DNA of 64,000 nt from a virus (IMGVR_UViG_2541047715_000004); one strand, 5' to 3'. Shown: positions 9,849 through 59,793, counted from the stretch's first letter. Notes: a model not told the origin generated them from the sequence alone. Made by a program: numbers and translations.

Positions 9849-10033
9849 ACTGGCTTTCAAATCACTTTGGGAAAATTTGGCTGGCAATTCTGGCTCTCAT
9901 GGCCGCCGGTTGGGTATCCAACATTATAAAACTCGTTTGCTCAGGTGATCTCCAGTTTCAGGCTGGCATGACCTTGGCTCGTGTAGTTGGGATTTTTATT
10001 TTTCCAGTCGGTTCGGTACTTGGTTATTTCTGA
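9845..10033 (+). CDS. small membrane protein
   Basis: 62 aa with two hydrophobic helices; translationally coupled to upstream ORF. Confidence 0.4.
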   Translation: MNWLSNHFGKIWLAILALMAAGWVSNIIKLVCSGDLQFQAGMTLARVVGIFIFPVGSVLGYF

Positions 10034-10087
10034 CGGTTGTTAGTGCATATGCATTGACCGTCTTTGCGTAAGCAATTTATGTAACCA

Positions 10088-10104
10088 GAAAACAATTTGT
10101 TTTG
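10088..10104 (+). promoter_or_regulatory. conserved palindrome GAAAACAA-N-TTGTTTT (family 1)
   Basis: About 23-39 bp upstream of ATG 10127; recurs at 10817, 23557, 23608, 26416, 26900, 27804, 28568, 37428, 37455. Confidence 0.5.
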
Positions 10105-10126
10105 ACAAATAGCAAAAGGAAAACAC

Positions 10127-10552
10127 ATGTTAGGTTTCTTCAAAAAGAAAACTCGTAAAGCTGTTATCGAAGTCAAAAAAATGGAGAACCGTGATGCGGT
10201 TGAAGCCACCGTGTGGGGCGGGTACATGATCTCCTATGCCAACGGTACATGCGATGCAAAAGAAATTTCCATTCTTGAGAAAACAATTGCAGCTCTGCCT
10301 GCATTTTCTCCTTTTGCTGGTGAGATTGCCCAGATGAGCGCCAATATCCGCGCTCAATACGAAGCCTCACCGCGCCGTGCTAATGCCCAGGCTTTACGTG
10401 AGCTGGCGGATGTGGCCGGGACTGATGATGCAGTAGATGTACTGTGTCTGTGCCTTGATATTGCCGACCAGGACGGCATTGATGAACCAGAAGAGCAGGC
10501 GCTGAAAAAGATCGCCCAGGCGCTTCAGTTGTCACTGGATGCTTATCTCTAA
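10127..10552 (+). CDS. TerB-like domain protein
   Basis: Pattern resembles tellurite-resistance TerB; C-terminal DQDGIDEPEEQALKKIAQALQLS. Confidence 0.5.
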   Translation: MLGFFKKKTRKAVIEVKKMENRDAVEATVWGGYMISYANGTCDAKEISILEKTIAALPAFSPFAGEIAQMSANIRAQYEASPRRANAQALRELADVAGTDDAVDVLCLCLDIADQDGIDEPEEQALKKIAQALQLSLDAYL

Positions 10553-10710
10553 TGCTTGAGAGATTCCGGCTTGTGACCGTCATTGCTCTTCTGGTGATAG
10601 CGGTGTTGGTGGATTTTACGGGAAAGATGATGTCTGTCATTTCTGATGGCGTCCTCATTGGTCTGGCGATCTACTTCGCTTATCCGCTAGTCCGTAAAGC
10701 AACGTGTTAA
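10552..10710 (+). CDS. small hydrophobic protein (52 aa), coupled to TerB-like gene
   Basis: TAATG stop/start overlap; not in ORF track because shorter than 60 aa. Confidence 0.35.
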   Translation: MLERFRLVTVIALLVIAVLVDFTGKMMSVISDGVLIGLAIYFAYPLVRKATC

Positions 10711-10711
10711 T

Positions 10712-10745
10712 GACAAGGGCCAAATGGCCCTTGTGTTTCGTTGAC
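10712..10745 (+). terminator. rho-independent terminator
   Basis: CAAGGGCCAAATGGCCCTTG followed by TGTTTCGTT. Confidence 0.55.
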
Positions 10746-10816
10746 CGAAATAGAGAGTTTGCACCTTTACGTTTAGCTTGCTCCCCTTTTATGCCACATC
10801 ACAATAAAGCCAATAA

Positions 10817-10833
10817 GAAAACAACTTGTTTAA
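10817..10833 (+). promoter_or_regulatory. family 1 palindrome (GAAAACAACTTGTTTA)
   Basis: 17-33 bp upstream of ATG 10850. Confidence 0.45.
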
Positions 10834-10849
10834 GCATTAGGAAAAACAC

Positions 10850-11419
10850 ATGTGCAAGAAATGCAAAGCGATAGCTGATGAACAAAACGCCTTATTCGAA
10901 GAAATGGATGCTAATGAACTGGTCAAAATGTTAGCCATTCTTCGAGGAATAGAAGACGTTTCCATATTTGAGAGAGTGGTTACAGCACTTAATTTTGAGT
11001 CCACCTTTGAAGAGCCAACTCAGGTTGTAGCTTTAGCACATCATTTCGGTGTTCATTATCTTGCTGAAAAAGAGCGCGCTGATAAGTTGCAGGCGACTTT
11101 GGATATGGTGAGCGAGACTCAACGAACTGATGACACTAACAAGAGTGAGGCGATTATTGCCAGCAAAGATCGTGAAATTGCTGGGCTTAAATCCTCTCTA
11201 ACGATGTTGATGTCTGCGTTCAATCTTATGTCTTCTCAGGCGGGTTATAAAATGCCATCACTAAACAGCGATGATCCGATGGCCGTTCGTCAGCTTTTGG
11301 GAGCAATGGCCGACCAACTCGACGACACAAAGAGTCGCCTTGAAGACATGATGCGTGAGTTAAGCCATCGACATAACCTCGCAACACAACCACACAAAGT
11401 CTTTCAAAGCTCTAATTGA
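10850..11419 (+). CDS. hypothetical protein
   Basis: 189-aa ORF preceded by family 1 palindrome and AGGAAA RBS. Confidence 0.5.
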   Translation: MCKKCKAIADEQNALFEEMDANELVKMLAILRGIEDVSIFERVVTALNFESTFEEPTQVVALAHHFGVHYLAEKERADKLQATLDMVSETQRTDDTNKSEAIIASKDREIAGLKSSLTMLMSAFNLMSSQAGYKMPSLNSDDPMAVRQLLGAMADQLDDTKSRLEDMMRELSHRHNLATQPHKVFQSSN

Positions 11420-11473
11420 TCTGATATGGCCGCATGATCGGCCATATTGTGTTGATAAAAACAAGGGTGAAAA

Positions 11474-11755
11474 ATGGCATACGGTACAGGGATTTACAAC
11501 AATAAAGGAATTAACGTTACTGGCTTCCTTACACCTATTTTTTTTCTTGATCGATTTACGGCGTCATCAGGCTCTAAGACGTACTCTAATCCGCCACCGG
11601 GTAAATCACTACATGCCGTGTGGTCATTAATGCCTCTTAACAACGACAACTACATCAATTTACCTGTTCCAAATGTTACTATTAATGGAAATACGGTTAG
11701 TTGGTCAAATTTATATACGGGGCTTGGTTCTTACATATACACATACTGGGGATAA
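11474..11755 (+). CDS. hypothetical protein (N/G/T/Y-rich)
   Basis: AT-rich ORF. Confidence 0.35.
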   Translation: MAYGTGIYNNKGINVTGFLTPIFFLDRFTASSGSKTYSNPPPGKSLHAVWSLMPLNNDNYINLPVPNVTINGNTVSWSNLYTGLGSYIYTYWG

Positions 11756-11757
11756 TT

Positions 11758-12372
11758 ATGTTCGGGATGTCAATTACTCAATCAGATGGAAGTTTGTGGA
11801 TGAGTCCTGAATTTACTCCGCAAAATCTGATTAATAAAGGGACAATGTCTACATCTAAAGGTTCTGTTTTTCAAACATCAATCCCATCAAACAAATCATG
11901 CTTTTTCTTCATAAAAAGCAGCAATAAGGCGAACATGATGTTTATTCATGAACATAGTAACGGATACAATGCTCTCAGATTGCATCAGGTAAATGGTAGC
12001 CCCGGAACAATAACAGTTTATGCTTTTTCTGATATGGTGTTACCACATTCTGGCTATGGCATTGCCATGTATAACAGCGCAGGCGCAATGGTGTATCACG
12101 GTGAGATGATGCCCCTTGATGCAAAACTTATCACTATTACTGACCCACAATTTACAATAGATATGGGGTATCCGTGCGCAGTAATGCCTGCTATGGTTGG
12201 GGTTTATAACTATAGACGAACCGATTACGACAGACCTGTCTATGTAACTATGACCGGTGCAACTGGAAACCAAGTATATAACGGTCAATGGTATTCCGGT
12301 AATGTCACATGGGATATTAAGAAGATTTATACAAACAAAATCCTGGTTATAAATACCTCAAAGTATGATTAG
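11758..12372 (+). CDS. hypothetical protein (beta-rich, N/Y/G/T-rich)
   Basis: ATG 11758 directly after previous stop; AT-rich. Confidence 0.4.
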   Translation: MFGMSITQSDGSLWMSPEFTPQNLINKGTMSTSKGSVFQTSIPSNKSCFFFIKSSNKANMMFIHEHSNGYNALRLHQVNGSPGTITVYAFSDMVLPHSGYGIAMYNSAGAMVYHGEMMPLDAKLITITDPQFTIDMGYPCAVMPAMVGVYNYRRTDYDRPVYVTMTGATGNQVYNGQWYSGNVTWDIKKIYTNKILVINTSKYD

Positions 12373-12475
12373 CAAATACCTTTATTTAAAGGATTGCCTG
12401 TTAATTTCTATTTAGCACCTTTTCATTTTTGAAATAATTGCACTATTAAACAAATCTTTTCTTAATGGTGCAATT

Positions 12476-12952
12476 ATGAATACAGCTCTTTCCATCATCG
12501 ACGATACCAACTCAAACACTGCTATCGATTATCGTCAGGAAATGAACGTCATCCACGAAATCGTAGCCGAGTGCGAGAAAGAGATCGCCTTCATGTATCA
12601 GGTTCACGACTTCGTTTATGGCGACGAACGCCACAACATGATTAATCGCCTGCTGCAACTGAACCATCGACCAGATGAAGAACGCTCACGTTTGAATCGA
12701 GCTTGGCTGGATAAAGTCGATCTGGAATGGGTGAAACAGAATATTTGGGCCGAGTACTGGAGGAAGGTCACGGATATGACTAACGTTTTGCTGATCATGC
12801 CAGCTTCCCGTCGCGACGAGTGGCGTGAGCAGTTTATAGAGGGCAAACAGGAAGTCATCAAAACTGACAGAACCGGCTACCAGATGAAGGTTAAAGAGTT
12901 CGTTGGTGTACCTGAGTTCAAAGTGGATACAAACATCCCTACGATGGTTTGA
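12476..12952 (+). CDS. hypothetical protein
   Basis: 158-aa ORF convergent with hsdR. Confidence 0.45.
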   Translation: MNTALSIIDDTNSNTAIDYRQEMNVIHEIVAECEKEIAFMYQVHDFVYGDERHNMINRLLQLNHRPDEERSRLNRAWLDKVDLEWVKQNIWAEYWRKVTDMTNVLLIMPASRRDEWREQFIEGKQEVIKTDRTGYQMKVKEFVGVPEFKVDTNIPTMV

Positions 12953-13010
12953 TCTGACAGCTATCTGCAATTTGCACAGATGTCTGCCAGATCTGGTTCA
13001 GATTAATACA

Positions 13011-16000
13011 CTATATCTGCCCACCTACTCCTTTGAACTTTTCAATAAACGTGACGATTTTCTGGAAAACGGTCTGTTTTTTCGTTTTATATTGCGGGTT
13101 TAACGGACTAAGTTTTGGTAATGTCTCGTTTAATTCTGTGCCATTTTCGGTGGCGTATTCGCGTTTTAAAGACGTGCGAATATAGCGTTTCGCCGCCTCT
13201 TCATTGAGATTTTCTTCTTTTATCAATGCTTCTGCTTCACGTTGCTGTTCGCGTTGAGCAAACGTAAAGAATGCCTCAATGATACTGGCTTTGTCTGGTA
13301 AATCATCCAGGTTCGTTTGCTGAATAAAATCGACCACCAGGCCCTCTTTCGCCCGGTTCCCCAGGCTTGAACGAATTAAGCGTTTGACCTCTTCGATCAT
13401 TTCGCCCTTGCCTTTATTTTGTCTGTTGTGTTCGAAAATCAGTCCAAGGATATAATCCAGGTTTATTTCCTGAGACTTCAGCAAATCGACCTCAAAAACT
13501 ACGTCATCCCAGTCAGTGGTTGATTTCTCTTTTTTCTCAGCTTCTTTCTCACGGCGCTGCCAGTCGCGAATATCGTTATAGGCAGAACGATAATCCTGAA
13601 TCTTGCGTTCAGCAGGGAGACGAATTGTTTGCAATTCAGCGAACTTTTCATCATCCACATAATGTTCTGCTTTGAATTTTTCTACCGCAACAGGATCGCT
13701 AAGATCGATTTGTTGCAGGGCTTTCAGCGTGGCAAATTCATCATAGTTTTGCAGGATGTTCTCGGCACGCAGGTATTCACCAAACAGTTTTACGAAGTCT
13801 TTCTTCTCTTTTTCACTTTCAATACTGGCAGGGTCAGGGAACCGTTGTTCCAGTTCTGAAACTACTGCCATAAAGCCGCGTTTAGCTTCACCAGTGGCAG
13901 CATCTGTAAAGCCTTCCATATACTCAGCATAACTCTTTTCTAACACCACATTTTTAGTATTTTTATCACCAAACAGCGTTATGGCATCAATGGTTGAGCG
14001 TTCCAGATCCCGAAAAGTGACGATGTTACCGAAGGTTTTAGTAGCGTCATAAATGCGGTTGGTACGGGAGAATGCCTGCATCAGGCCGTGAAAACGCAAG
14101 TTTTTATCGACGAATAGCGTGTTCAATGTTGGAGCGTCGAAGCCGGTTAAAAACATCCCAACGACAATTAACAGATCGATATCCTGATTTTTAACCCGTT
14201 GGGCTAAATCACGATAGTAGTTCTGAAAACCGTTACTGTCGGTGCTGAAGTTAGTTTTAAAATAGCTGTTATACTCACGAATTGCAGCGTCAAGAAACTC
14301 TTTAGCACTGCTGTCCATTGCGCTGGTATCAAAAGTTTCATCGGAAATTTCACCAATGGCATTTTGTTCTTCATTGGCGGCAAAGGAGAAGATTGTTGCA
14401 ACACGCAGCGGTTTATAGGTAGCCGATTTATTAGCTGCTTCCTCTTGTAACCGTTTAAACGTCGCGTAATAGGCTTTCGCGGCATCCACGCTACTCACTG
14501 CCAGCATGGCATTAAAGCCTTTGGAACCTGGGAAAGTACGGTGGGTCTTCTGGCGGAAGTTATTCAGAATATATTGCGTAATTTCCTGTATACGCATGGG
14601 ATGAAGAAATGCCTGCTGATTTTCAGCCGCACTCAGTTTTTTCTCGTCGGTTTCTGTCTCTAAAGATTTAAACTGTGGCCGCACATCGTTGTAGTCCACC
14701 TTGAATTTGAGCACTTTTTCATCACGAATCGCATCGGTAATTACATACGAATGCAATTCACGACCAAATACGCTGGCGGTCGTTTCTGAGCCTAAGGCGT
14801 TTTCCGGGAAAATAGGTGTGCCGGTAAAACCAAACTGATAATAGCGTTTGAATTTCTTCTTCAGGTTTTTCTGCGCTTCTCCAAACTGGCTGCGGTGACA
14901 TTCATCAAATATAAACACCACTTGCTGATTGTATACAGGCAGGTCGCTTTCTGCTTTCATCAGGTTATTAAGTTTCTGAATAGTGGTGACGATAATTTTG
15001 TTATCGTCCTTATCCAGATTGCGTTTAAGACCTGCGGTATTTTCCGAGCCGTTGACGCTGTCTGGCGAAAAACGCTTATATTCATTCATGGTCTGGTAAT
15101 CGAGGTCTTTCCTGTCGACCACGAAGAAGACTTTATCAATAAAGTCCAGCTCTGTTGCCAGACGCGCGGCTTTAAAGCTGGTGAGGGTTTTACCTGAACC
15201 GGTAGTGTGCCAGATATACCCACCGCTTTCCGGTTTTGACCAGTTCTTCGCTGTAAAGGAACTCTTAATTTTCCACAGAATGCGCTCAGTGGCGGCAATC
15301 TGGTACGGTCGCATCACCAGTAGCGTTTGGCTAACATCGAATACGCTGTAGTTCACTAAGACATTAAGCAGGGTATGTTTCTGGAAAAAGGTGGCGGTAA
15401 AGTCTTTGAGGTCTTTAATCAGCGTGTTGTCTGATTTCGCCCAATTCATGGTGAAGTCAAAACTGTTTTTATCGCGCTTTGTCGTGTTGGCAAAGTAACG
15501 GGTATCGGTGCCGTTGGAAATGACAAACAGTTGCAGATACTTAAACAGAGAATTTTCGCTGTTAAAACTCTCTTTGCTGTAACGATGTATCTGGTTAAAG
15601 GCCTCACGAATCGCCACGCCGCGCTTTTTCAGTTCGATTTGTACCAGCGGTAAGCCATTAACCAGGATCGTGACGTCATAACGGTTAGCATGAGAACCCG
15701 TCTGTTCAAACTGCTGGATAATCTGCACCTTGTTGCGCATGAGATTCTTTTTATCTATCAAATAGATGTTCTCAAGACGCTCGTCATCAAAAATAAAGTC
15801 GCAAATATAGTCGATATGGATTTTACGGGTCTTATCCAGGATGCCATCGCTCGGGTTATCCAGATACTGCTCCGTGAAACGCCGCCATTCGCTGTCATTA
15901 AACACCACACCATTGAGGTTCTGAAGCTGTTCCCGAACGTTGGCCAGCATCGCCGACTGAGATTTTACGGAAATAAATTCATAGCCCTGATTCCGCAGAT

Positions 16001-16127
16001 CCTGAATCAGTTCACGTTCCAGGTCCGATTCGCTCTGGTAGCTGTCGCCTGTTTGCTCGGCTTTGATGTACTTATCAAGAACGATAAAGTTATTGGATTC
16101 AGCAATGGTGTGTGTCTGATGAGTCAT
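13011..16127 (-). CDS. hsdR: type I restriction enzyme R subunit, type IC (EcoR124-like)
   Basis: 1038 aa; Walker [13 protein letters not shown]-box FDECHRS, helicase motifs; N-terminus [20 protein letters not shown] matches my recollection of EcoR124 HsdR. Confidence 0.95.
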
Positions 16128-16248
16128 AGCGCATCCTTTGTGCCGTCTGGCAAGGGCCGGAAGGGCTTTAAGGGCGACTTCCGGCGTGTAAAAAATAGTC
16201 TCTATATAGACCGGATGTTAAGGTGATCCGGTCGGTAGCAATGGTCAA

Positions 16249-17496
16249 TTAGTTACTGATAGTTTCAGGTTTGGGAAAACTGAACAGTAAATCACGATAG
16301 TACTCGTATTGTTTCTGGCGCAACTCGATTTCACGCGGAAGACCTTCGGTGATGGAATTGGTCAAAGCATCAAATTTATCCAGTAATTTCACTATTTTTT
16401 GTTGTTCAACTAGCGATCTTTCAGGAGAATCAGGAAATGGTACTGGTATCATAAGTTTTCTTAAGTTATCATTATAAAGTCTTTTAATAGTTCCACCTTC
16501 AGATATTCCCCATTTTGCTATTTTATAGAAATAGAATAAATATTTATTTAAAACTATTTTTTCATTATTTTCAATCCAGACAATATTGCTATCCTGGAAA
16601 TATGATTCCCTACCATCAAATATAACAGTCCTGCCGATGGTCCCACTGGCAGAAATCAATACTTCGCCAACTTTAGGATAACTATATTTTTCTTTAAATT
16701 CATTAAATAGTTTTCTAGATATATAGGAATCGGGTTCCTTACCAAATGTCCCAATTTTATAAAATGGAATCTCTCCCTCAGAAGATGTTTGTGATTTTAG
16801 GATTCGTTTACACATACGAACTTCACCAATTTCCCCCAAAGCTTTCCACTCAACCTCACCCTCTTTAAAACTCAACAACTGGTCGCGATAGTAGTTGTAT
16901 TGTTTTTTACGCATGCTAAGCTCAGCGGTAAGCTCAGCGGTAAGTGCAGTAAATTTATCCAGAATCCTGACGATTTCAGACTGGATAGCCAGCGACTTTT
17001 CCGGGTTGTTGGGGCAAGGGATGGGGATAAGTAATTTACCTATATCTTTAGCATACAAATGATAAACAGTAGAACCTTTAACCATTTGCAATATCTTTTT
17101 TTTGTTATTTATTATGAAATTACTTAGATATCTACCATCAACACCAGAGCATCTAATAATCAAAATATCGCCGCCTAAAATAACGCCACTTTCTTGAATG
17201 CAACTAGCTGTAGCCAAACCTCTTGGTGTAACGTCTGACGTTGGCATTAGAACATCATTTTTTTCAGATAGAATTGACTCATTGATTGCTTGGTTTGTTT
17301 TTGAGCATACTTTGTCAATTATGGGACCATAATGAGTGAAAAGCTCACCGTAATGAATACAATATCTATTGCCATCTGGAGTTATTTTTTCTTTAGGTAA
17401 AGACTTCCCTTTTAAAAAAGTTGCTAATTTATTTAATGCTACCCACTCAACCTCAGCCCCATCCAGCAGTTTTTCCAGATAACTCAGCTCGCTCAT
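16249..17496 (-). CDS. hsdS: type I R-M specificity subunit, type IC with two divergent TRDs
   Basis: Conserved N-terminal, central ([29 protein letters not shown]) and C-terminal ([41 protein letters not shown]) regions; AT-rich variable TRDs. Confidence 0.95.
16918..16941 (-). repeat. 2 x 12-bp tandem repeat in hsdS central region, encoding TAEL-TAEL
   Basis: + strand AAGCTCAGCGGT twice, then a degenerate third copy. Confidence 0.85.
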
Positions 17497-19055
17497 GCCT
17501 GTACCTCGCTACCTTCAATCTCAGCAACAATCGCATCAATATCTTTACGCAACTGGTCGATTTTGCTGACCGTGGTTTTCAGCTCAGCATTCAGCTCAGC
17601 GATATCGATAATTTCGCGAGTATCTTTCGCTTCCACATAGCTGCTCACCGACAGGTTATAGTCATTCGCGACAACAGTCTCAAACGCAACAGATTTCGCC
17701 AGATGAGCAACATCTTCCTTGCTGGCAAATACCTGCATAATCTGTTCGATATGAGCATCGGTCAGAATGTTGTTGTTAGTCTCTTTTTTGAACAGTTCGC
17801 TGGCATCAATAAACTGAACTTTGGTATCCGTTTTATGTTTAGACAGCACCAGAATATTGACGGCAATAGTGGTGCCAAAGAACAGATTCGGTGCCAGTGA
17901 AATCACGGTTTCGACATAGTTATTGTCGACCAGATACTGACGGATTTTCTGCTCCGCGCCGCCACGGTAAAAAATGCCTGGGAAGCAGACAATCGCAGCG
18001 CGACCTTTGGCCGAAAGATAGTTCAGCGCATGTAATACAAACGCAAAGTCAGCTTTGGATTTGGGGGCCAGAACGCCAGCCGGGGCAAAACGTTCATCGT
18101 TAATCAGCGTCGGGTCATCGCTGCCAATCCATTTCACCGAATACGGCGGGTTAGAAACGATGGCATCAAACGGTTTTTCATCTCTGAAGTGCGGCTCAGT
18201 CAGTGTATTACCCAGCTTGATATCAAACTTGTCGTAGTTGATGTTGTGCAAAAACATGTTCATACGCGCCAGGTTATAGGTCGTATGGTTGATTTCCTGA
18301 CCAAAAAAACCTTCTTCGATGATATGGTCATCAAACTGTTTTTTCGCCTGCAACAACAGCGAACCGGAGCCTGCTGCCGGGTCGTAGATTTTGTTAACGT
18401 GGGTCTGCCCGTGCATAGCCAGTTGTGCAATCAGCTTAGAGACGTGCTGCGGTGTAAAGAACTCGCCGCCGGACTTACCGGCATTCGCCGCATAGTTAGA
18501 AATCAGGAACTCATAGGCGTCACCGAACAGGTCAATCTGATGTTCATGGAAGTCACCAAGTTTTAGCCCTTCAACCCCTTTCAGAACCGCAGCCAAGCGG
18601 GCATTTTTATCTTTAACGGTGTTACCCAGGCGGTTACTGGTGGTATCGAAATCAGCAAACAAACCTTTGATGTCAGCTTCTGAAGGATAACCGTAAGCAG
18701 AACTTTCGATAGCAACGAAGATGCTGTTTAAATCTGCATTCAGTCTGTCATTAGTATTTGCTTTCGCAGCTACGTTGCAGAAAAGCTGACTGGGGTAGAT
18801 GAAGTAGCCTTTAGTTTTGATGGCATCGTCTTTAATGTCATCAGTAATTACGCTGTCATCCAGTTTCGCATAACAGATACTGTCATCACCGGCTTCAATA
18901 TAACTGGAAAAATTTTCGCTGATAAAACGGTAAAAAAGCGCGCCCAAAACGTACTGCTTAAAATCCCATCCATCGACTGAACCCCTGACATCGTTAGCAA
19001 TTTGCCAGATCTGGCGATGAAGCTCTGCACGTTGTTGAATACTTGTCATTTTCAT
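17493..19055 (-). CDS. hsdM: type I R-M N6-adenine DNA methyltransferase subunit
   Basis: 520 aa; motif [14 protein letters not shown]; stop overlaps hsdS start (ATGA). Confidence 0.95.
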
Positions 19056-19407
19056 CCACTTATTTCAGGTTTAAGTAATTGGATGTGATTCTACAGCAAC
19101 TTGGATGCTTTAGCAGTTCGGACATTAGGTAACGAATGACCTAATTAGAGCTTTTTGGAAAAGCGGTATTGTCGGTGCGATTTTAGCTATGTCTGGGTGT
19201 GCGATGGTGCAATACAATGACGGTGAAAAGGTTAGCATCCAGTTCGATGGCTGGTATTGGCTTGGATAGCCTGCCAAAAAACGCAGATAAAGCCTGTCAG
19301 CAATACGGAAAGTCTAAAGCTGTATATCTGCATAGCGCGAACGCTAACCCTCATCTTGCGCCTGGTACGGGTGTTCAGAATACCATCTGGAAATGTGAGC
19401 CTTAAAC

Positions 19408-19659
19408 ATGAGCAACTGGAACATAGCAGCCAAAAGCCAGGAAGAAAGGAATAAAGTTAACGTTGACCTGGCTGCCAGGGGGGTTGCCTACAAAGAGCGA
19501 TTGAACATACCCGTCATAGCGGAACAGGTAGCCCGTGAGCAACCTGAGAACCTGCGCACCTATTTCATGGAACGGCTACGGCACTACCGGCAGTTAAGCC
19601 TCCTGCTGCCAAAAGGAAACGATCCGGTATATCAGAAAGAAGATATAGCCAAAAAATAA
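19408..19659 (+). CDS. hypothetical protein
   Basis: 83-aa ORF between hsdM promoter region and UmuD'-like gene. Confidence 0.4.
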
Positions 19660-19719
19660 CGCGCCACCAGACGAGCGCAAAGCATCGCGCTATTGCACAC
19701 TTCAAGCATCTTTAATGTA

Positions 19720-19739
19720 TACTGTATGGATAAACAGTA
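19720..19739 (+). promoter_or_regulatory. LexA operator (SOS box)
   Basis: TACTGTATGGATAAACAGTA fits CTGT-N8-ACAG; 19 bp upstream of ATG 19758. Confidence 0.65.
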
Positions 19740-19757
19740 CTCTGAGGTGAAAACGCT

Positions 19758-20147
19758 ATGGGCTTCCCTTCTCCTGCGGCGGATTATGCTGAGAGCCGTA
19801 TTTCTCTTGATCAGCAGATAATTAGACATCCTTCAGCGACCTACTTCATGAGGGCAGCTGATAGTCATCATCGTGAGGGAATATTACAGGGTGCATTGCT
19901 GGTGGTCGATTCCTCACTTACCCCGGTTGATGGTTCTCTGCTTGTATGCGCTCTGGATGGGGAATATCGCGTAAAAAGATACCGGAAGTACCCACGTCAG
20001 CATCTGGAGGATTTAAGAACCGGTAAGAAGGAAGCATTGCCAAAGGATGACGATGGATGCACGGGCAGCAATGCCGTGTTTGGTGTGATCACTCACATTA
20101 TCAACGACGCAAGAAGTGGCGAGTTTGATGATTGTCCCGTGATGTAG
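19758..20147 (+). CDS. UmuD'-like S24 peptidase-fold protein lacking the cleavable N-terminal arm (HumD-like)
   Basis: Starts MGFPSPAADY, equivalent to UmuD residue Gly25; Ser (ADS) and Lys (RVKRY) dyad positions conserved; GAGGTG RBS. Confidence 0.7.
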   Translation: MGFPSPAADYAESRISLDQQIIRHPSATYFMRAADSHHREGILQGALLVVDSSLTPVDGSLLVCALDGEYRVKRYRKYPRQHLEDLRTGKKEALPKDDDGCTGSNAVFGVITHIINDARSGEFDDCPVM

Positions 20148-20158
20148 GAGAACTGATT

Positions 20159-20184
20159 AGGCGGTGCAATGCACCGCCTTTTAT
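20159..20184. terminator. bidirectional terminator between convergent UmuD'-like gene and apbC
   Basis: AGGCGGTGCAATGCACCGCCT followed by TTTAT. Confidence 0.6.
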
Positions 20185-21284
20185 CACACTGCGCGGAATG
20201 CGATTTCGCCAGGTATTACTTCACCTTGCCAATACATTTGGGCGGCAACGCGATCTGCGAGGTCACGATAAATAGCCGTAAATTCGCTATCTGGACGACT
20301 AATAACGGTTGGTGTTCCGTTATCCAGATCTTCACGAAGAGAGATATGAAGTGGCATTTGGCCTAACAACTGCGTGTTGTATTTCTCGGCCAGTTTCTGT
20401 GCGCCACCGGTGCCAAAAATTGGCTCGTGATGACCGCAGTTACTGCAAATATGCACACTCATGTTTTCGACGATACCCAGTACCGGCACTTCGACTTTTT
20501 CGAACATCACAATGCCTTTCTTCGCATCGATCAGCGCGATGTCTTGCGGCGTAGTTACCACAACCGCACCAGTTACAGGAATGTTCTGCGCCAGCGTCAA
20601 CTGAATATCACCAGTGCCCGGCGGCATATCGAGAACGAGATAGTCCAGATCAGGCCATAGAGTTTCCTGCAACATCTGCATCAGCGCCTTGCTGGCCATC
20701 GGTCCACGCCACACCATTGCATTGTCGTCGGTGACCAGATAACCAATAGAGTTGGTTGCCAGGCCATGAGACATGATAGGTGCCATGTGAGTACCGTCAG
20801 GTGAGGTTGGACGTTGGTTTTCCGCGCCCAGCATGGTTGGAATTGATGGACCATAGATATCGGCATCCAAAATACCAACTTTCGCACCTTCAGCAGCCAA
20901 CGCCAGTGCCAGGTTTACCGCCGTGGAGGATTTACCCACGCCGCCCTTGCCTGAGCTGACGGCGATAATGTTCTTAACGCCATTAATGCCTGGTTGGTTT
21001 TTGACGCGCTTAAGCGTGGCAATGTTGTACGACAGCTTCCAGTCAATAGCCTTTGCGCCAGTGATACGGAGCAGATCACCACTACATTGCTCTTTCAGGT
21101 CTTCAAAAGGCTTATTCCACACGAAAGGCATGATTAGTTCGACATGCAGTGTGTCATCCATCAACGCAACATGGTGTAACGCTTTAAGCGTAGTCAGGTT
21201 GTGTTTCAGGGTTGGGTGCTGAAAATTAGCCAGCGTACCGGCTACCATTGCTCTCAGGGCATCCGGCGATTTGGACTCGCTCAT
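20184..21284 (-). CDS. apbC: Fe-S cluster carrier ATPase ApbC/Mrp
   Basis: 366 aa, GKGGVGKS P-loop; near-identical to E. coli Mrp as I recall it. Confidence 0.95.
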   Translation of the reverse strand: MSESKSPDALRAMVAGTLANFQHPTLKHNLTTLKALHHVALMDDTLHVELIMPFVWNKPFEDLKEQCSGDLLRITGAKAIDWKLSYNIATLKRVKNQPGINGVKNIIAVSSGKGGVGKSSTAVNLALALAAEGAKVGILDADIYGPSIPTMLGAENQRPTSPDGTHMAPIMSHGLATNSIGYLVTDDNAMVWRGPMASKALMQMLQETLWPDLDYLVLDMPPGTGDIQLTLAQNIPVTGAVVVTTPQDIALIDAKKGIVMFEKVEVPVLGIVENMSVHICSNCGHHEPIFGTGGAQKLAEKYNTQLLGQMPLHISLREDLDNGTPTVISRPDSEFTAIYRDLADRVAAQMYWQGEVIPGEIAFRAV

Positions 21285-24880: not shown

Positions 24881-25949
24881 CGGTTGTAACTTATTGATAA
24901 TGGCGGTCACAATTTGATTCTTTTCTATAAGAATCCGTTGATCGCCACTACTCCCCTACCATGCCCGCAATCACATCCTTAAATATCAATAAGTTATAGT
25001 TGTTTATACAATCAAGAAAACAACTGAATAACAGATCAACGAAACATCAACGCTTTCACCCGATTTGGTCTAAAAAATTGACGTTTTCACACATCACTGC
25101 TTATACCCGTAATTCTACACAGCAGACAGCGCCACAGCGTCCAATTTTCACCACAGACGACCCAACACACTACCAACAAAAACACATGCTCAAAATCGTT
25201 CCCGTTGCGTTACATAACCATATAAACAACTTATTTTCAGGCATAACAAAACAACTAAATAACACATATGCCATTCCCAAAACAACCAACCTCGTTATGG
25301 CAGGCTACCGAAAAGACCCACCTCTTCTTCCCAGGCTACCGGACAACCAACCTAACTTTCACAGGCAATCCGAAAACATTCATACGCGCGATACCCACGA
25401 CACGCCATTACCCAAACAGCGAAGAAACACCAGAATCACTGAAACCCCAACGAAGCCTGTAACCGCAAGGTTTCTCTCAATCCCAAAAGACACGAAGCAT
25501 AACAATCACGGGAAACGCCATTACCCAATACACGAATAACTACAAAAGCCTTTCACACACTCCAGACAAACAACTCAAACACAATAACGAAAGGAATCGC
25601 CCACCTGCCATTACTCCATACACGGAGAAGAACAATCACCAAAACGACGAGAACACCCCATAGAAGAACCACCGCAAAACTAACGAAACCACATACACCG
25701 ACAGAGAAAACAACACACCCAATTCACCAACAGAAATAGTCGCCGTATAGAACGTTCTGGAAGGAGTGAGCATTAACGCCTATAGAGAGGTTGAGACAGA
25801 TAAAACACGAAGAAAACACAACATGTATAGCGAAGAAGCCAGGTATGTATAAGTGGGGAGGGAAGGAGGGGTGTCGCCTCCTTTTTCGTATTTATTCAAC
25901 TCCTGATTTTATCCCCCGTAAAACCCCTACGGTCAGCCTTCGGTCCATA

Positions 25950-55047: not shown

Positions 55048-55065
55048 ACAAGGATTTTTTTGAAC

Positions 55066-58000
55066 ATGGAACAGTTCAAGAAGAAAAAGTTACCGCTGTT
55101 TATTGCAGGTGCGGGTGGTAAAAAAAGCAGCAAAAGCTCTAGCCGTACACCGGTTGAAGCCGACGATACCGTAAATTCTCGTGCAATGGCCGCTATCCTC
55201 GATCTTCTTGGGGAAGGGGTAATTGGCGGCTTGGTAAATGGCGCAAGATCTATTTTTGTCGACGATCTGCCGATTGTAAATGAAGACGGTTCCTCCAACT
55301 TCAGCGGAATCACATGGGATTTTCGCGACGGTTCGCAAGACCAGACTCCAATGTCTGGCTTTGATTTCGTTGAAACGCCTAAATCCGTCAATATCCAGTT
55401 AAAAAAAACACATTATGTAACGGTTTCAATCGATAACGATGAAGCTGATCGGGTTCGTGTCATCATGAAGTTTCCTTCTTTGCGAAGCATAGATAAAAAA
55501 ACTGGTGACACGAACGGTACAACCGTTGAGTACAAGTTCCAGATAGCAAATGGCGACTCAACATTTGTAGATGTGGTCGCAGAAGGTGAAAAAAGCGTTG
55601 GCATTAAGCTAACAGCAAAGAAGACAGGTGTTTATTACCGTAGCTATGAGCTGAAGCTGCCTAAGCCTGGACGCGCGTACAAGGTTCGTGTAGTCCGTAT
55701 TACCGATGATAACAGCAGCCAGTATCTCTATAACGATACATGGGTGGACTCAATAGGTGAGATTGTAGATACACCGATGAACTACCCAAACTCTGTGCTG
55801 GTGGGTCTGAAGGTTAATTCTGAGCAGTTTGGTAGCACCATGCCATCTCGTTCGTATTTGGTACGTGGATTAAAAATTCGCGTGCCGTCAAACTACAACG
55901 AGGCCAGCAACACTTATGATGGTGTATGGGATGGCACTTTTAAGCTGTTGTCTTCTTCAAACCCCGCGTGGATTCTCTTTGATTTGCTTACCAATGCTCG
56001 ATATGGCCTTGGTCAGTATGTGTCGGAATCTATGATTGACCTCGGCCAGCTATACCAGATCGGTCGATATTGTGACGAAGAGGTTGATGATGGCTTTGGT
56101 GGTAAAGAGAAACGCTTTGCAATCAATACGCAGATCACCAGTCGACAGGACGCATACCGATTAATTCAGGATATTGCCGGTGCATTCCGCGGTATGGTGT
56201 TTTGGGCTGGTGGCATGGTTAACATCATGCAGGATAGCCCATCAGATCCGGTAATGATGTTTACCAACTCTAACGTCAAAGATGGATTGTTTACCTATAA
56301 AGGTTCTGCGCGTAAAGATCGCCCATCCGTTGCGCTCGTAACCTACAACAACAAGGAGGACGGTTATAAGCAAAACATCGAGTACGTTGAAGATCAGGAC
56401 GCAATGCGCCGTTATGGTGAGCGTAAGACAGAAGTCGTAGCATTTGGCTGTACAAGCCGAGGGCAGGCTCACCGAGTTGGTTTGTGGCTTTTATATACCG
56501 CCAGAATGGAGTCGGATGTAATTACATTTACTGCCGGCTTAGACGCGTCATTTCTGATGCCTGGTGAAACCGTTCTGATTCAGAACAAATATCGCGCAGG
56601 CAAACGTAACTCAGGTCGAATTGTGGCGTTTACCAAAAACAGCGTCACACTCGATGCGCCGGTGTCGTTAGCCAAAGGCGGCTGCTTTATTCGAATACTG
56701 AATCATGAAGGCAAAATCGTTGAACGCGATGTTCTTGAAACTGGCGAAAATATAACAAAAGTTACGTTTTCAAAATCCCTGTCTTCGGCTGAAACGCCTG
56801 TTTTGAACGGCGTCTGGACTATTACAGAACCAGACCTCGAACCTATGCGCGTTCGCATCGTTAACATCGCGCAGGGGGAAACGCCGGGTAGCTTTGACAT
56901 CACCGCTGTTGAGAACAATCCGTCTAAATATGAGGCGATCGACAATGGTGCAACGCTTATCCCGCAGAATACGACGGTATTGGACCCGACTTACTCCAAG
57001 CCGTCTAATTTGCAAATCACTGAAGGAACTTACCTCTCAAGCCCGGGCAACCTGTCAGTAAAACTGACTGCAACATGGGAAGGGAAATCTCCAGAGTATT
57101 GGATCAGTTGGCGACGTTCTGATGAAAACAATGTATCGAACTGGCAATCGGCGCGTGTAACCGAAGAGCAATACGAAATCGTTAATGTCGCGGAGAATGG
57201 ACGCTACGACTTCCAACTGTATGCGGTTTCATTCAACGGTAAAAAAACAGAGATTATCAGTGCCGTTTATCAGGTGTTGGGCACAATGACACCGCCGGAT
57301 TCCCCAACGTCATTAACGGCCGTTGGAGACTATCGTAATGTAATACTGAATTGGGTTAATCCAGATTCGGTAGACCTTGATCACATTAATGTTTACGCAT
57401 CCCAGACCAACAATCTGGATACGGCGAAACTGATCGCAGAGTCTGCAAGCACCACCTTTACACATGCTGGTCTTGGGGATAGCGAAACGTGGTATTACTG
57501 GGTTCGAGCATCGAACAAGCGAGGTATGTTAAGTCCTCCGAACTCAAACTTGGGTACAGAGGCGACAACTCGCGATGTACTGTCGTTCCTGACTGGCAAA
57601 ATTACATCTTCCGAGCTTGGTCAGGCTCTGCTTGAGGACATCAACAGCAAAGCCTCTCAAGAAGCAGTTGACGAGTTAAATGAGCATATCAACCAGAGCG
57701 TCGAATCTTTGGAGGGGGCGGTAAACGACGTTAAGGAAGATATAGCTGAATTAGATAAGCAGTTCAGCGATAACCTCGCGGATTTTGAAATAAAATTCAA
57801 CGAGCGTAGCGATGCTTTGGAGAACGCACAAACCGAGCTTAAAGGTGAGGTTTCGGCAACGATTGACAAGGTCAATGAAGCGTTTGAAAAAATTGATGCT
57901 ACTGATGCTGCAATTGTTGAAATCGAAAACACCGTATCTGAACACGATAAAGCTCTCGCTAATACAGTCGAGGCAATAAAGGCTGCAAGAGATGAAGCGG

Positions 58001-59793
58001 CGGCTCTTATTGCTAAGGAAAGCGAGGCTCGTGTTGAAGGCGATGCTGCAAACGCTAAACAACTGGAAGTGTTGCAGTCAACGGTAGAGGAAAGCTCCGC
58101 TGCCGTTGAAGAAATGAAAAAGACGGTTGCAGAGGTCGATCGTGCCAGTGCAGAACTGACTACGAACATTGAGGCGTTAGCCAAAACAAATATTGACCTG
58201 GCTCTTCGTCAAGATGAAGACCAGCACAAGCAGATGGTCAATAACGCGAAGATCGCAACAACACAGAAAACCTTTGCTGATGATATGTCTGCAATGGCCA
58301 CGAAGGTTGAGGAAATTCGCGTAGAAATTGGCGAAGACATTAAGGCCAGTATTCTGGAAGAGTCCACCGCGCGTGCCGATGGCGATGAAGCGTTGGCAAA
58401 GCGTGTCACTCAGCTGCAATCTAAGTTTGAAGGAGATATCAGCGCGGCGATTAGTACAGAGCAGGAGGCTCGTACATCTGCCGATGAAGCTCTGACGACA
58501 CAGATCACTCAGCTTGAGTCGAAAGTAAGCAACGATATCGTCGCAGCTATTAAGGAAGAGCAAGAAGCCCGAGCAACGGAAGATTCGGCTCTGGCAAGCC
58601 AGATCACCCAACTTCAGGCAAAGGTTGATGATGATATTTCTGCTGCAATACGTAGTGAGCAGGAGGCTCGAGCAAGCGGGGACTCTGCGTTAGCCAAACA
58701 AATAAACCAGCTTCAGTCAAAGGTTGACGGTGATATATCCGCTGCCATCACTCAGGAGCAGGAGGCCAGGGCAAGTGCTGACCAGGCGCTCTCACGAGAA
58801 ATTAACAGCCTGCGAGCACAAACCGGAACTGATATTGCCGCAGCGGTTGCTGTAGAGACAAAAGCAAGGACTGATGCCGATAGTGCATTGTCTACCCAGA
58901 TTACGTCTCTTACAGCAAAAGCTAATGATCTCGAGGCGTCTCTTGCCAGAGAAACAACGGCTCGTGCAGATGGTGATACCGCTTTAACAAAAGAGGTTTC
59001 AAGTTTAAAAGCACAGACAGCGAAAGATATTAGTGCGGCCGTTGCAGTTGAAACGCAGGCTCGAACTGATGCTGACTCGGCGTTGTCGTCTCAGATCACC
59101 AAGCTGACCTCTCAATACAAAGAGGATATTAAAGCGGCTGTAGCAACCGAAACGAAAACGCGTACAGAGCAAGATGCTGCATTGGCGACTCAAATCACAA
59201 ACTTAGAGTCTCAAACGGCAGCCAACATTTCCGCGGCGGTAACAACTGAAACGACAGCGAGAATGCAGGCAGATAATGCTCTGAGTGGGCGAATCGATAC
59301 TCTGAAAGCAGAGGTGGATGGAAATACCGCGACAATTCAACAGCAGGCAACAGCTATTGCTGATACCAACAAAAAAGTGTCAACCGCGTGGACGTTGAAA
59401 ATGGAAACTTCAACGAGCGGAGGGCAGAAGTATGTTGCTGGTATTGCGCTTGGTATCGACACCACTGGCCTTTCTCAGTTTTTGGTGCAGGCTGACAGGT
59501 TTGGTTTGGTCAACTCTGTTAACGGGAAGATCACAACGCCATTTGTTATCGAAAACAGTATCGCCTATATGAATGGAGCGTATATCAAGGATGGCACAAT
59601 CACCAATGCAAAAGTAGGCGATCTGCAATCTACCAATTTTGTTAGCGGTAGATCTGGATGGCGATTCGGCAAAAATGGAACGCTTGAGATCAACGGTAAT
59701 AGCGGCGGCAATGGGCGATTGGTTATAAATGGTCAGCGGATTGACGTTTATGACGATAACAACGTCTTACGAGTAAGAATTGGCCGTCTGTGA
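55066..59793 (+). CDS. central tail fiber / host specificity protein (lambda gpJ-like) with C-terminal coiled-coil repeats
   Basis: 1575 aa after K/I; about 10 tandem 33-aa repeats near C-terminus. Confidence 0.85.
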   Translation: MEQFKKKKLPLFIAGAGGKKSSKSSSRTPVEADDTVNSRAMAAILDLLGEGVIGGLVNGARSIFVDDLPIVNEDGSSNFSGITWDFRDGSQDQTPMSGFDFVETPKSVNIQLKKTHYVTVSIDNDEADRVRVIMKFPSLRSIDKKTGDTNGTTVEYKFQIANGDSTFVDVVAEGEKSVGIKLTAKKTGVYYRSYELKLPKPGRAYKVRVVRITDDNSSQYLYNDTWVDSIGEIVDTPMNYPNSVLVGLKVNSEQFGSTMPSRSYLVRGLKIRVPSNYNEASNTYDGVWDGTFKLLSSSNPAWILFDLLTNARYGLGQYVSESMIDLGQLYQIGRYCDEEVDDGFGGKEKRFAINTQITSRQDAYRLIQDIAGAFRGMVFWAGGMVNIMQDSPSDPVMMFTNSNVKDGLFTYKGSARKDRPSVALVTYNNKEDGYKQNIEYVEDQDAMRRYGERKTEVVAFGCTSRGQAHRVGLWLLYTARMESDVITFTAGLDASFLMPGETVLIQNKYRAGKRNSGRIVAFTKNSVTLDAPVSLAKGGCFIRILNHEGKIVERDVLETGENITKVTFSKSLSSAETPVLNGVWTITEPDLEPMRVRIVNIAQGETPGSFDITAVENNPSKYEAIDNGATLIPQNTTVLDPTYSKPSNLQITEGTYLSSPGNLSVKLTATWEGKSPEYWISWRRSDENNVSNWQSARVTEEQYEIVNVAENGRYDFQLYAVSFNGKKTEIISAVYQVLGTMTPPDSPTSLTAVGDYRNVILNWVNPDSVDLDHINVYASQTNNLDTAKLIAESASTTFTHAGLGDSETWYYWVRASNKRGMLSPPNSNLGTEATTRDVLSFLTGKITSSELGQALLEDINSKASQEAVDELNEHINQSVESLEGAVNDVKEDIAELDKQFSDNLADFEIKFNERSDALENAQTELKGEVSATIDKVNEAFEKIDATDAAIVEIENTVSEHDKALANTVEAIKAARDEAAALIAKESEARVEGDAANAKQLEVLQSTVEESSAAVEEMKKTVAEVDRASAELTTNIEALAKTNIDLALRQDEDQHKQMVNNAKIATTQKTFADDMSAMATKVEEIRVEIGEDIKASILEESTARADGDEALAKRVTQLQSKFEGDISAAISTEQEARTSADEALTTQITQLESKVSNDIVAAIKEEQEARATEDSALASQITQLQAKVDDDISAAIRSEQEARASGDSALAKQINQLQSKVDGDISAAITQEQEARASADQALSREINSLRAQTGTDIAAAVAVETKARTDADSALSTQITSLTAKANDLEASLARETTARADGDTALTKEVSSLKAQTAKDISAAVAVETQARTDADSALSSQITKLTSQYKEDIKAAVATETKTRTEQDAALATQITNLESQTAANISAAVTTETTARMQADNALSGRIDTLKAEVDGNTATIQQQATAIADTNKKVSTAWTLKMETSTSGGQKYVAGIALGIDTTGLSQFLVQADRFGLVNSVNGKITTPFVIENSIAYMNGAYIKDGTITNAKVGDLQSTNFVSGRSGWRFGKNGTLEINGNSGGNGRLVINGQRIDVYDDNNVLRVRIGRL

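What the first reader, a model, noticed from the sequence alone, without database searches (positions are those of the whole stretch)
11474..12952. AT-rich unusual-composition ORFs directly abutting the hsdR end
ORFs 11474-11755 and 11758-12372 are N/Y/G/T-rich with few charged residues and sit in adjacent frames (one frameshifted gene or two genes). Together with 12476-12952 they form the last phage-side genes before hsdR, where accessory or anti-defence cargo often accumulates.
Basis: seen in the sequence. Interest (0 to 1): 0.4.

Follow-up and report, generated by a model that had tools for sequence, protein, structure and literature searches.

The report
Displaced phage tail-tip adhesin gene pair
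The two odd-looking genes are most likely a known pair of phage tail-tip host-recognition genes sitting in an unusual place in an SSU5-like phage-plasmid, and the third ORF is the stump of a DNA methyltransferase gene cut off by a restriction-modification cassette; this is interesting housekeeping, not a new system.

The parts
11399..11466 (.). Left junction of the insertion. It aligns with neither SSU5 nor JenP2 and contains the hairpin ATGGCCG-CATGAT-CGGCCAT (11427-11446).
   Evidence: blastn boundaries (SSU5 homology ends at 11398, JenP2 homology starts at 11467); sequence.
11467..12372 (+). Two-gene cassette shared as a unit with other phages, running from the ribosome-binding site to the stop codon of the second gene.
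   Evidence: 76.2% nt identity over 906 nt to Nonagvirus JenP2 and 65.4% to Stx phage PA2, ending exactly at 12372. GC 38.7%.
11474..11755 (+). ORF93: small beta-sandwich protein (PHROG 557), the 'Ig-like' partner of the tail-tip pair.
11758..12372 (+). ORF204: 'hand-like' all-beta protein (PHROG 425) with the fold of a solved siphophage receptor-binding protein.
12434..12477 (.). 21-nt inverted repeat overlapping the RBS and ATG of the methyltransferase stump. It belongs to the SSU5-type backbone.
   Evidence: the repeat finder I1, 86% complementary. SSU5 homology resumes at 12396.
12476..12952 (+). ORF158: 5' remnant (codons 1-158) of the 561-aa DUF4942 DNA methyltransferase gene (SSU5_095 / CYRAN_90).
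   Evidence: phrog_6263 'DNA methyltransferase', profile positions 1-150 of 548, E 2e-68. Homology to Cyrano runs to 12949 and stops at the stop codon. DUF4942 lies at residues 140-295 of the full protein.
12950..19709 (-). Type I restriction-modification block: hsdR 13011-16127, hsdS 16249-17496, hsdM 17493-19055, plus 654 bp containing an 83-aa ORF. It replaces the methyltransferase 3' part and the ead / ea22 / eaa / eae-type genes of Cyrano.
   Evidence: ORFs. Cyrano homology breaks at 12949 and resumes at 19710, which corresponds to a 5.9-kb stretch of Cyrano.
55060..59793 (+). J-like central tail fibre (1577 aa). Its C-terminal tip is the presumed docking site for the pair, 43 kb away.
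   Evidence: Pfam Phage_Tail_Tip PF09327 at residues 1425-1559. The last 70 aa are identical apart from one or two residues in SSU5 and pHH12_P1 and in pECAZ162_2. The terminal motif VYDxNxxLRVRIGRL is shared with the J-like proteins of JenP2, tonijn and Stx phage PA2 but not with Rtp43.

Best explanation
ORF93 and ORF204 are two separate, translationally coupled lytic-cycle genes. Together they most likely encode a two-component adhesin for the tip of the phage's central tail fibre.

Proposed mechanism:
- The 204-aa protein has the fold of the LptDE-binding receptor-binding protein of phage Oekolampad.
- Its conserved N-terminal segment, and that of the 93-aa beta-sandwich partner, dock on the conserved C-terminal tip of the J-like fibre (window 55060-59793).
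- The more variable C-terminal parts contact an outer-membrane receptor of unknown identity. Relatives in the wider superfamily are linked to LptD (shown), FhuA (predicted RBP; the receptor itself was identified experimentally) and BamA (predicted RBP; the receptor itself was identified experimentally).
- The role is accessory or host-range-modulating rather than indispensable.

History in this lineage: an allele closest to those of Nonagvirus phages was inserted by horizontal transfer between the SSU5_094-like gene and the DUF4942 methyltransferase gene. The ancestral pair and the cor exclusion gene next to the lateral tail-fibre genes are absent.

ORF158 is a separate matter. It is the inactive 5' stump of that methyltransferase gene, left when a 6.8-kb hsdRSM block replaced about 5.9 kb of backbone.

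Shown here: family membership, fold, synteny elsewhere, insertion and replacement boundaries, purifying selection, and absence of the native pair. Taken from published data on near-identical or related copies: no expression in lysogeny, and dispensability in a Stx phage. Inferred: incorporation into virions, docking on J, and receptor binding.
For: Identity and fold:
- phrog_557 (E 6e-29) and phrog_425 (E 2e-72).
- ORF204 matches the Rtp44 family weakly: phrog_1265 E 3.4e-6, and hhalign of 94 against 12 sequences gives 75% probability, E 2.6e-5.
- Single-chain relatives of 309-323 aa carry phrog_557 at the N terminus and phrog_425 at the C terminus. That is the size and layout of Rtp44-type RBPs.

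Context:
- In 54 of 54 non-SSU5 viral loci the pair abuts the 3' end of a gene ending in the J-tip motif: 48 Stx podophage-type loci, 3 Nonagvirus, 2 Drexlerviridae and 1 lambdoid-like contig.
- SSU5 has its own pair next to cor.
- The J tip is shared between cassette-only, native-only and both-type phage-plasmids.
- Cassette-bearing elements lack the native pair and cor: NZ_CP010144 and Cyrano.
- Among 250 plasmids with a homologue there are 261 matched places, so at most 11 records can carry two copies.

Selection: dN/dS is 0.08-0.09 between two alleles at the same phage-plasmid site, which are only 77-89% nt identical while the flanks are 94-100%. The N-terminal segments are the best-conserved parts between cassette and native versions.

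Not membrane proteins or defence genes: no signal peptide, lipobox or TM segment, and no PADLOC hit.

Literature:
- PMC12309495 models the phi24B homologues (61-63% identical) as tail-spike tip proteins.
- PMC8594841 and bioRxiv 10.64898/2026.04.02.716166 link the locus downstream of gpJ to receptor specificity.
- CYRAN_88 and CYRAN_89 read 7.6 and 11.4, against a Cyrano median of 9.8 and a moron cut-off of 49, in LF82 (PMC9928086).

ORF158.
Against: - The pair lies 43 kb from the tail genes, inside a run of early / DNA-metabolism-type genes. No late promoter was identified.
- In Stx phage Sp5 the homologues ORF72 (92 aa) and ORF73 (205 aa) were individually deleted and are not among the nine genes needed for plaques or lysogeny on K-12, whereas the J-like ORF71 is (PMC5155283). 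The pair therefore cannot be an indispensable RBP there.
- I found no virion proteomics or binding data for any PHROG 425/557 member. The published tail-tip models are in silico only.
- The ORF93 model has no specific structural match.
- Sequence links to the validated Rtp44 / Oekolampad family are weak. The fused relatives do not hit phrog_1265, and their alignment scores only 0.1% probability against the Rtp44 family in hhalign.
- Only 2 of the 250 plasmids with a detectable pair are Klebsiella, although Klebsiella accounts for 184 of the 545 plasmids that matched the region at nucleotide level. Up to 11 plasmids may have two copies.
- The cassette-versus-native anticorrelation is not corrected for phylogeny.
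Confidence: 0.6

Rival explanations
1. Non-structural tail-assembly factors. The pair would act as chaperones that help fold or trim the J-like fibre or the lateral fibres, and would not end up in the virion or touch the receptor.
For: It has the same synteny as tail-fibre assembly genes, next to fibre genes. It is dispensable in Sp5 on K-12. PMC12309495 itself allows 'structural or chaperone-like roles'. A trans-acting assembly factor would tolerate an ectopic location.
Against: The only strong structural match of ORF204 is a bona fide receptor-binding protein seen bound to its receptor. The allelic diversity and local divergence hot spot resemble host-range determinants more than chaperones. 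The locus type correlates with receptor specificity in small siphoviruses.
Confidence: 0.15
2. Lysogen-benefit or defence cargo. The cassette would be a captured RBP used against other phages. It could poison or mis-target tail assembly of superinfecting phages with a compatible J tip (Nonagvirus, Stx phages), or act as a superinfection-exclusion factor.
For: It sits in a variable accessory region next to TciA/TciB-like genes, a methyltransferase gene and a type I R-M block. It is foreign in origin and AT-rich. The J-tip motif is shared with the donor-type phages, so cross-assembly is conceivable.
Against: The near-identical Cyrano genes are at transcriptional background in lysogeny and were not called morons. 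There is no signal peptide or lipobox, so it cannot reach an outer-membrane receptor the way Cor, Llp and Rtp45 do. There is no PADLOC match. Elements that carry it tend to lack the native pair, which suggests substitution rather than an added weapon.
Confidence: 0.1
3. A decaying hitch-hiker or assembly artefact: one gene broken by a frameshift, or two non-functional relics.
For: The ORFs are in adjacent frames separated by 2 nt. Fused single-chain relatives exist.
Against: The split architecture, with the same lengths, is conserved across hundreds of independent genomes with varying spacers. dN/dS is 0.06-0.11 with saturated or high dS. ORF204 is intact and at least 95% identical in 112 plasmids.
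Confidence: 0.03

Closest known systems
[quoted passage not shown] 2025, PMC12309495); PHROG 557 and PHROG 425
   Same: Same two families and the same small-then-large gene order and sizes. The window pair is 61-66% identical to the Stx-phage proteins and 76-82% identical to those of Nonagvirus JenP1 / JenP2. The model is likewise all-beta, with a disordered but conserved N terminus.
   Different: Here the pair is not next to the J-like gene but 43 kb away in an early-type region of a phage-plasmid. The published function is a modelling prediction, not an experiment.
LptD-binding RBPs of small siphophages: RBP of Oekolampad (PDB 9rpt chain C) and Rtp44, PHROG 1265 (Dunbar et al., bioRxiv 10.1101/2025.07.07.663478)
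   Different: Those are single chains of about 310 aa, paired with a lipoprotein exclusion gene (Rtp45), on a J protein with a different C terminus. Here the equivalent is split into 93 + 204 aa, no exclusion gene is adjacent, and the receptor is unknown.
Receptor-specificity locus downstream of gpJ in Drexlerviridae, Dhillonvirus and Queuovirinae (Maffei et al. 2021, PMC8594841; bioRxiv 10.64898/2026.04.02.716166)
   Same: The closest phage relatives of the cassette (JenP1, JenP2, BRET; Warwickvirus tonijn) carry it exactly in that locus, convergent with gpJ. As described for that locus, exchange is modular and horizontal.
   Different: The link between locus and receptor for the non-LptD families is correlative plus AF3 models. 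The JenP-type allele has no assigned receptor in the papers I read.
SSU5's own pair SSU5_023 / SSU5_024 followed by cor (SSU5_025)
   Same: Same two PHROG families, and the same J tip as the window phage.
   Different: Only 24-30% identical. It is located after the lateral tail-fibre genes and before the lysis cassette, and is accompanied by Cor. It is absent from the window-type elements.
DUF4942 DNA methyltransferase of SSU5-like phage-plasmids (SSU5_095, CYRAN_90)
   Same: ORF158 is its first 158 residues, including the native upstream region.
   Different: It is truncated before most of the DUF4942 domain (residues 140-295), so it is presumably inactive.

Membership tests
PHROG 557 / PHROG 425 tail-tip pair (gpJ-associated 'Ig-like' + 'hand-like' proteins) | Sequence match of the small and large protein to the two family profiles | tested here: met
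   phrog_557 E 6.1e-29 over residues 1-93; phrog_425 E 2.2e-72 over residues 1-204.
PHROG 557 / PHROG 425 tail-tip pair (gpJ-associated 'Ig-like' + 'hand-like' proteins) | Small gene immediately followed by large gene on the same strand | tested here: met
   TAA, 2 nt, then ATG. Same order in JenP2, PA2, tonijn, SSU5 and pHH12_P1.
PHROG 557 / PHROG 425 tail-tip pair (gpJ-associated 'Ig-like' + 'hand-like' proteins) | Location directly beside the 3' end of the J-like central fibre or spike gene, or within the tail-fibre module | tested here: not met
   In the window J is at 55060-59793, 43 kb away, and 23 of 23 SSU5-like cassette loci have no J-tip gene within the up to 6 kb of flank held on each side. 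In contrast, 54 of 54 other loci abut a J-tip gene. This is a positional feature, not a property of the proteins.
PHROG 557 / PHROG 425 tail-tip pair (gpJ-associated 'Ig-like' + 'hand-like' proteins) | Soluble beta-rich proteins without export signals, despite the 'membrane' annotation | tested here: met
   Maximum 19-residue Kyte-Doolittle hydropathy is 0.94 and 1.10. No lipobox, and no basic residue in the first 10 residues. The AF2 models are almost entirely beta-strand.
PHROG 557 / PHROG 425 tail-tip pair (gpJ-associated 'Ig-like' + 'hand-like' proteins) | Physical presence at the fibre tip of the virion and binding to a host receptor | not testable with these tools
   Only in-silico complexes are published.
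LptD-type receptor-binding proteins (Rtp44 / RBP of Oekolampad, PHROG 1265) | Fold of the solved RBP (9rpt chain C) | tested here: met
LptD-type receptor-binding proteins (Rtp44 / RBP of Oekolampad, PHROG 1265) | Significant full-length sequence similarity to the family | tested here: inconclusive
   phrog_1265 E 3.4e-6 over 117 residues. hhalign gives 75% probability over 47 columns. The single-sequence comparison and the fused relatives give nothing.
LptD-type receptor-binding proteins (Rtp44 / RBP of Oekolampad, PHROG 1265) | Single polypeptide of about 310 aa with an adjacent Rtp45-like exclusion lipoprotein gene | tested here: not met
   The equivalent here is split into 93 + 204 aa, and no lipoprotein ORF flanks the cassette.
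Superinfection-exclusion lipoproteins of RBP loci (Cor, Llp, Rtp45) | Signal peptide with lipobox; small periplasm-facing lipoprotein; expressed in the lysogen or early in infection | tested here: not met
   No lipobox or signal peptide. The Cyrano copies are at background in lysogeny.
Known anti-phage defence systems (PADLOC-DB) | Match to any defence-system protein model | tested here: not met
   No hit at E <= 0.01 for ORF93, ORF204, ORF158 or the two neighbours tested.
DUF4942 DNA methyltransferase (ORF158) | Presence of the DUF4942 domain | tested here: not met
   No Pfam hit for ORF158. The domain spans residues 140-295 of the intact Cyrano protein. ORF158 ends at residue 158, at the recombination junction.

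The most novel reading that the evidence does not exclude
The host-recognition tip of this phage-plasmid's tail is supplied in trans from a portable two-gene cassette that has been uncoupled from the tail module. The cassette was swapped in from virulent Nonagvirus-like phages because all these phages share a common J-tip docking motif. In the more speculative version, the captured cassette also sabotages or re-targets the progeny of superinfecting phages that share that docking motif.
Probability: 0.15. Interest if true: 0.6.

Novelty: new member of a known kind. Interest (0 to 1): 0.3.

Why it matters
- It corrects a widespread misannotation. "Outer membrane protein" and "membrane associated protein", filed by PHROGs under "other" and "moron", are applied to a gene pair present in hundreds of coliphages, Stx phages and phage-plasmids. 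This analysis ties the pair by fold to an experimentally solved receptor-binding protein.
- It shows that in one common lineage of E. coli SSU5-like phage-plasmids, which includes pLF82 / Cyrano of the Crohn's-associated strain LF82, this host-recognition module sits outside the tail module and exists in divergent alleles. That matters for predicting the host range of elements known to spread resistance genes.
- It is a caution for scans: unusual composition next to a defence island does not by itself indicate anti-defence cargo.

Tried and rejected
- Pfam and NCBIfam scans of the three ORFs found nothing. PADLOC found nothing. Rfam at E <= 0.1 over 10000-20500 found nothing.
- An hmmsearch of the ORF204 profile against PDB sequences found nothing. 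Only fold comparison found the RBP.
- hhalign of the ORF204 alignment against a single Rtp44 sequence was useless, at 1% probability. It needed a family alignment.
- I asked whether the J C-terminus co-varies with cassette versus native pair. It does not: the tip is the same in all SSU5-like elements compared, apart from one or two residues. This argues for a generic docking site and removes a possible proof of pairing.
- I tried to assign a receptor through BASEL and JenP literature. No receptor is given for JenP1, JenP2 or BRET in the papers I read.
- I looked for a promoter or terminator bracketing the cassette. There were no convincing sites, and fewer promoter-like matches than in shuffles.
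- No paralogue of the pair is in the window. The native tail-module site lies just beyond the window end and was checked in full plasmids instead.
- The T1 cryo-EM paper held no information on these proteins.

Full report
**What the window is.** The 2.25 kb around the finding is 100% identical to many E. coli plasmids of about 110 kb (replicon rep_cluster_488). It is 98% identical to Escherichia phage Cyrano, the phage-plasmid pLF82 of strain LF82, and is partly shared with Salmonella phage SSU5. The window is therefore an SSU5-like phage-plasmid. Its tail module lies at about 48-64 kb. The J-like central fibre gene is at 55060-59793, and a lateral tail-fibre gene runs off the window end.

**Checking the observation.** The three ORFs are at the stated coordinates.
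- ORF93 (11474-11755): N+Y+G+T 42%, only 6% charged residues.
- ORF204 (ATG at 11758, ending 12372): N+Y+G+T 31%, 13% charged.
- ORF158 (12476-12952): ordinary, at 18% and 31%.
- The pair has 38.7% GC against a window mean of 46.5% (sd 3.7). That is the 3rd percentile of equal-sized windows, so it is low but not unique. ORF158 has 47.0% GC.
- ORF158 ends 58 bp from the convergent hsdR stop codon at 13011.

The compositional observation is therefore right for two of the three ORFs.

**One gene or two.** Two. The arrangement of a 92-94 aa ORF followed by a 203-206 aa ORF recurs in 278 and 329 phage records and in 250 plasmids. The spacers differ: a 1-nt overlap in pHH12_P1, 2 nt in JenP2 and tonijn, 5 nt in PA2 and 41 nt in SSU5. 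That excludes both a sequencing error and a conserved programmed frameshift.

Both genes are under strong purifying selection. Against the allele at the same site of phage-plasmid PhiR41_1, dN/dS is 0.080 for ORF93 and 0.088 for ORF204. For ORF204 it is 0.061 against JenP2 and 0.109 against Stx phage PA2. Distant relatives of 309-323 aa are natural fusions, with PHROG 557 at the N terminus and PHROG 425 at the C terminus. The split is therefore old and real.

**What the pair is.** Pfam and NCBIfam are silent. PHROGs places ORF93 in phrog_557 ("outer membrane protein", E 6e-29) and ORF204 in phrog_425 ("membrane associated protein", E 2e-72). ORF204 also has a weak hit to phrog_1265 (E 3.4e-6). 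Those names are not supported. Neither protein has a signal peptide, lipobox or hydrophobic segment.

Rtp44, the related LptD-type RBP of phage Rtp, is the phrog_1265 family. A profile-profile comparison of 94 ORF204 relatives with 12 Rtp44 relatives gives 75% probability over a shared central motif. The ORF93 model (pLDDT 83) is a small beta-sandwich with only generic lectin and Ig-like matches.

**Where the pair normally lives.** Among 78 viral contigs encoding a relative, all 54 complete loci outside the SSU5 group have the pair directly against the 3' end of a gene whose product ends in a J-type tip.
- Stx-phage-type loci, 48 of them: the J-tip gene is upstream on the same strand, and lom follows wherever the contig extends far enough.
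- One lambdoid-like contig has the same arrangement.
- Nonagvirus (3 loci) and Drexlerviridae (2 loci): the J-tip gene is convergent with the pair.
- SSU5 has its own distant pair (SSU5_023 / SSU5_024) after the lateral fibre genes, followed by the exclusion gene cor.

This is the locus that Maffei et al. (PMC8594841) and a 2026 preprint (10.64898/2026.04.02.716166) link to terminal-receptor specificity in small siphoviruses. Matusiak et al. (PMC12309495) modelled the phi24B homologues as an "Ig-like" and a "hand-like" protein capping the J-like spike. Those homologues are 61-66% identical to the window pair.

The J-like proteins of JenP2, tonijn, Stx phage PA2 and the window phage share a C-terminal motif of the form VYDxNGxLRVxIGR. 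Rtp43, which carries the single-chain LptD RBP, ends differently.

**What is unusual here.** In the window the pair is 43 kb from J. The unit shared with JenP2 (76% nt) and PA2 (65%) is exactly 11467-12372, from ribosome-binding site to stop codon. Relative to SSU5, about 1 kb (11399-12395) is inserted in the intergenic region between the SSU5_094-like gene and the DUF4942 methyltransferase gene. All 23 SSU5-like viral loci with the cassette have it at this same site.

Elements with the cassette lack the native pair and cor. In NZ_CP010144, which is identical to the window at the locus, and in Cyrano, the lateral-fibre genes run straight into the holin gene.

Across PLSDB, 119 plasmids carry a cassette-type allele (at least 80% aa identity) and 128 carry only a homologue below 60% identity; in the 31 of these listed, this homologue is typically 24-29% identical (one at 55%), and it lies in the tail module in the one checked. 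There are 261 matched places in 250 records, so at most 11 can carry two copies. pHH12_P1 is one example.

The J tip is the same in cassette-only, native-only and both-type elements, apart from one or two residues. Between the cassette and native versions, the best-conserved parts are the N-terminal segments. Between two otherwise 94-100% identical backbones the cassette is only 77-89% identical, so alleles are being exchanged at this site.

**Published experiments that bear on function.**
1. In LF82, the Cyrano copies (99-100% identical in protein) read 7.6 and 11.4 normalised counts in LB. The Cyrano median is 9.8 and the authors' moron cut-off is 49, and they were not listed as morons (PMC9928086). 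This argues against a lysogen-expressed conversion or defence role.
2. In Stx2 phage Sp5, ORF72 (92 aa) and ORF73 (205 aa), the homologues, were individually deleted in frame. They are not among the nine genes required for plaque formation or lysogenisation of K-12, whereas the adjacent J-like ORF71 is required (PMC5155283). The pair is therefore not an indispensable RBP, at least there and on that host.
3. For the siphovirus locus, only the LptD-type RBP has structural proof (10.1101/2025.07.07.663478). The other families rest on correlation and AF3 models, and the swaps in the 2026 preprint were done on T4-like phages only.

**Best explanation.** The pair most likely encodes an accessory, exchangeable tail-tip adhesin. 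It would dock by its conserved N-terminal parts on the generic J tip and contact an outer-membrane receptor that I cannot name. In this lineage it is placed ectopically, and it probably substitutes for the lost native pair. Confidence is about 0.6. The homology, fold, synteny, boundaries and selection are shown. Virion incorporation, docking and receptor binding are inferred. The rivals are a non-structural assembly factor (0.15), defence or decoy cargo (0.10) and a decaying relic (0.03).

**ORF158 and the hsd block.** ORF158 matches the first 150 positions of the 548-position phrog_6263 "DNA methyltransferase" profile. It corresponds to residues 1-158 of the 561-aa CYRAN_90 / SSU5_095 protein, whose DUF4942 domain spans residues 140-295. 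Homology to Cyrano runs to 12949 and ends at the stop codon. It resumes at 19710.

A 6.8-kb block has therefore replaced about 5.9 kb that in Cyrano holds the rest of the methyltransferase gene and the ead / ea22 / eaa / eae-type genes. The block holds hsdR, hsdS, hsdM and an 83-aa ORF. ORF158 is a gene stump, unrelated to the pair.

**Verdict.** This is a correct spot of compositionally odd, horizontally acquired genes, but not anti-defence cargo. It is a new member, in an unusual genomic position, of an already described though still experimentally thin kind of phage host-recognition module, together with a truncated methyltransferase gene. Interest is modest at 0.3. The ectopic, allelically variable placement in a common family of E. 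coli phage-plasmids is the only part a specialist might want to follow up.

Noticed in passing
window 19719-19738 (and ORF 19758-20147): An SOS-box-like palindrome, TACTGTATGGATAAACAGTA, lies 20 nt upstream of a LexA/UmuD-like S24 peptidase gene. It sits where homology to Cyrano resumes after the hsd block.
   Followed up: no
window 12434-12477: A 21-nt inverted repeat (86% complementary, 2-nt gap) covers the ribosome-binding site and ATG of the methyltransferase gene stump. It could be an operator or a translational hairpin of the intact gene.
   Followed up: no
window 25001-26000: This 1-kb bin has GC skew -0.28 and AT skew +0.345, far outside the rest of the window.
   Followed up: no
window 55060-59793 (J-like protein, residues about 980-1330): The J-like fibre contains a run of roughly 33-residue internal repeats. 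The C-terminal 250 aa hit nine or more staggered positions in the same protein.
   Followed up: partly
window 12950-19709: The hsdRSM block is a replacement, not a simple insertion. It removes about 5.9 kb of ead / ea22 / eaa / eae-type genes present in Cyrano. It carries an unannotated 83-aa ORF (19408-19659) with no PADLOC hit.
   Followed up: partly
NZ_CP010144.1 111326-112575 (L008), the region just past the window end: Window-type plasmids have a 'receptor-recognizing protein' and a short 'tail fiber domain-containing protein' where SSU5 has a tail-fibre adhesin, the native pair and cor. The whole distal host-recognition region has been remodelled.
   Followed up: partly
window 11427-11446: The hairpin ATGGCCG-CATGAT-CGGCCAT lies in the 68-bp junction between the SSU5_094-like gene and the cassette. 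The junction aligns with neither SSU5 nor JenP2.
   Followed up: no
L005 6727-7002 (phage tonijn gp18): In Warwickvirus a 91-aa ORF directly precedes the pair. This is the position held by the Rtp45 exclusion lipoprotein in phage Rtp. It has no Pfam hit, and I did not check it for a lipobox.
   Followed up: no
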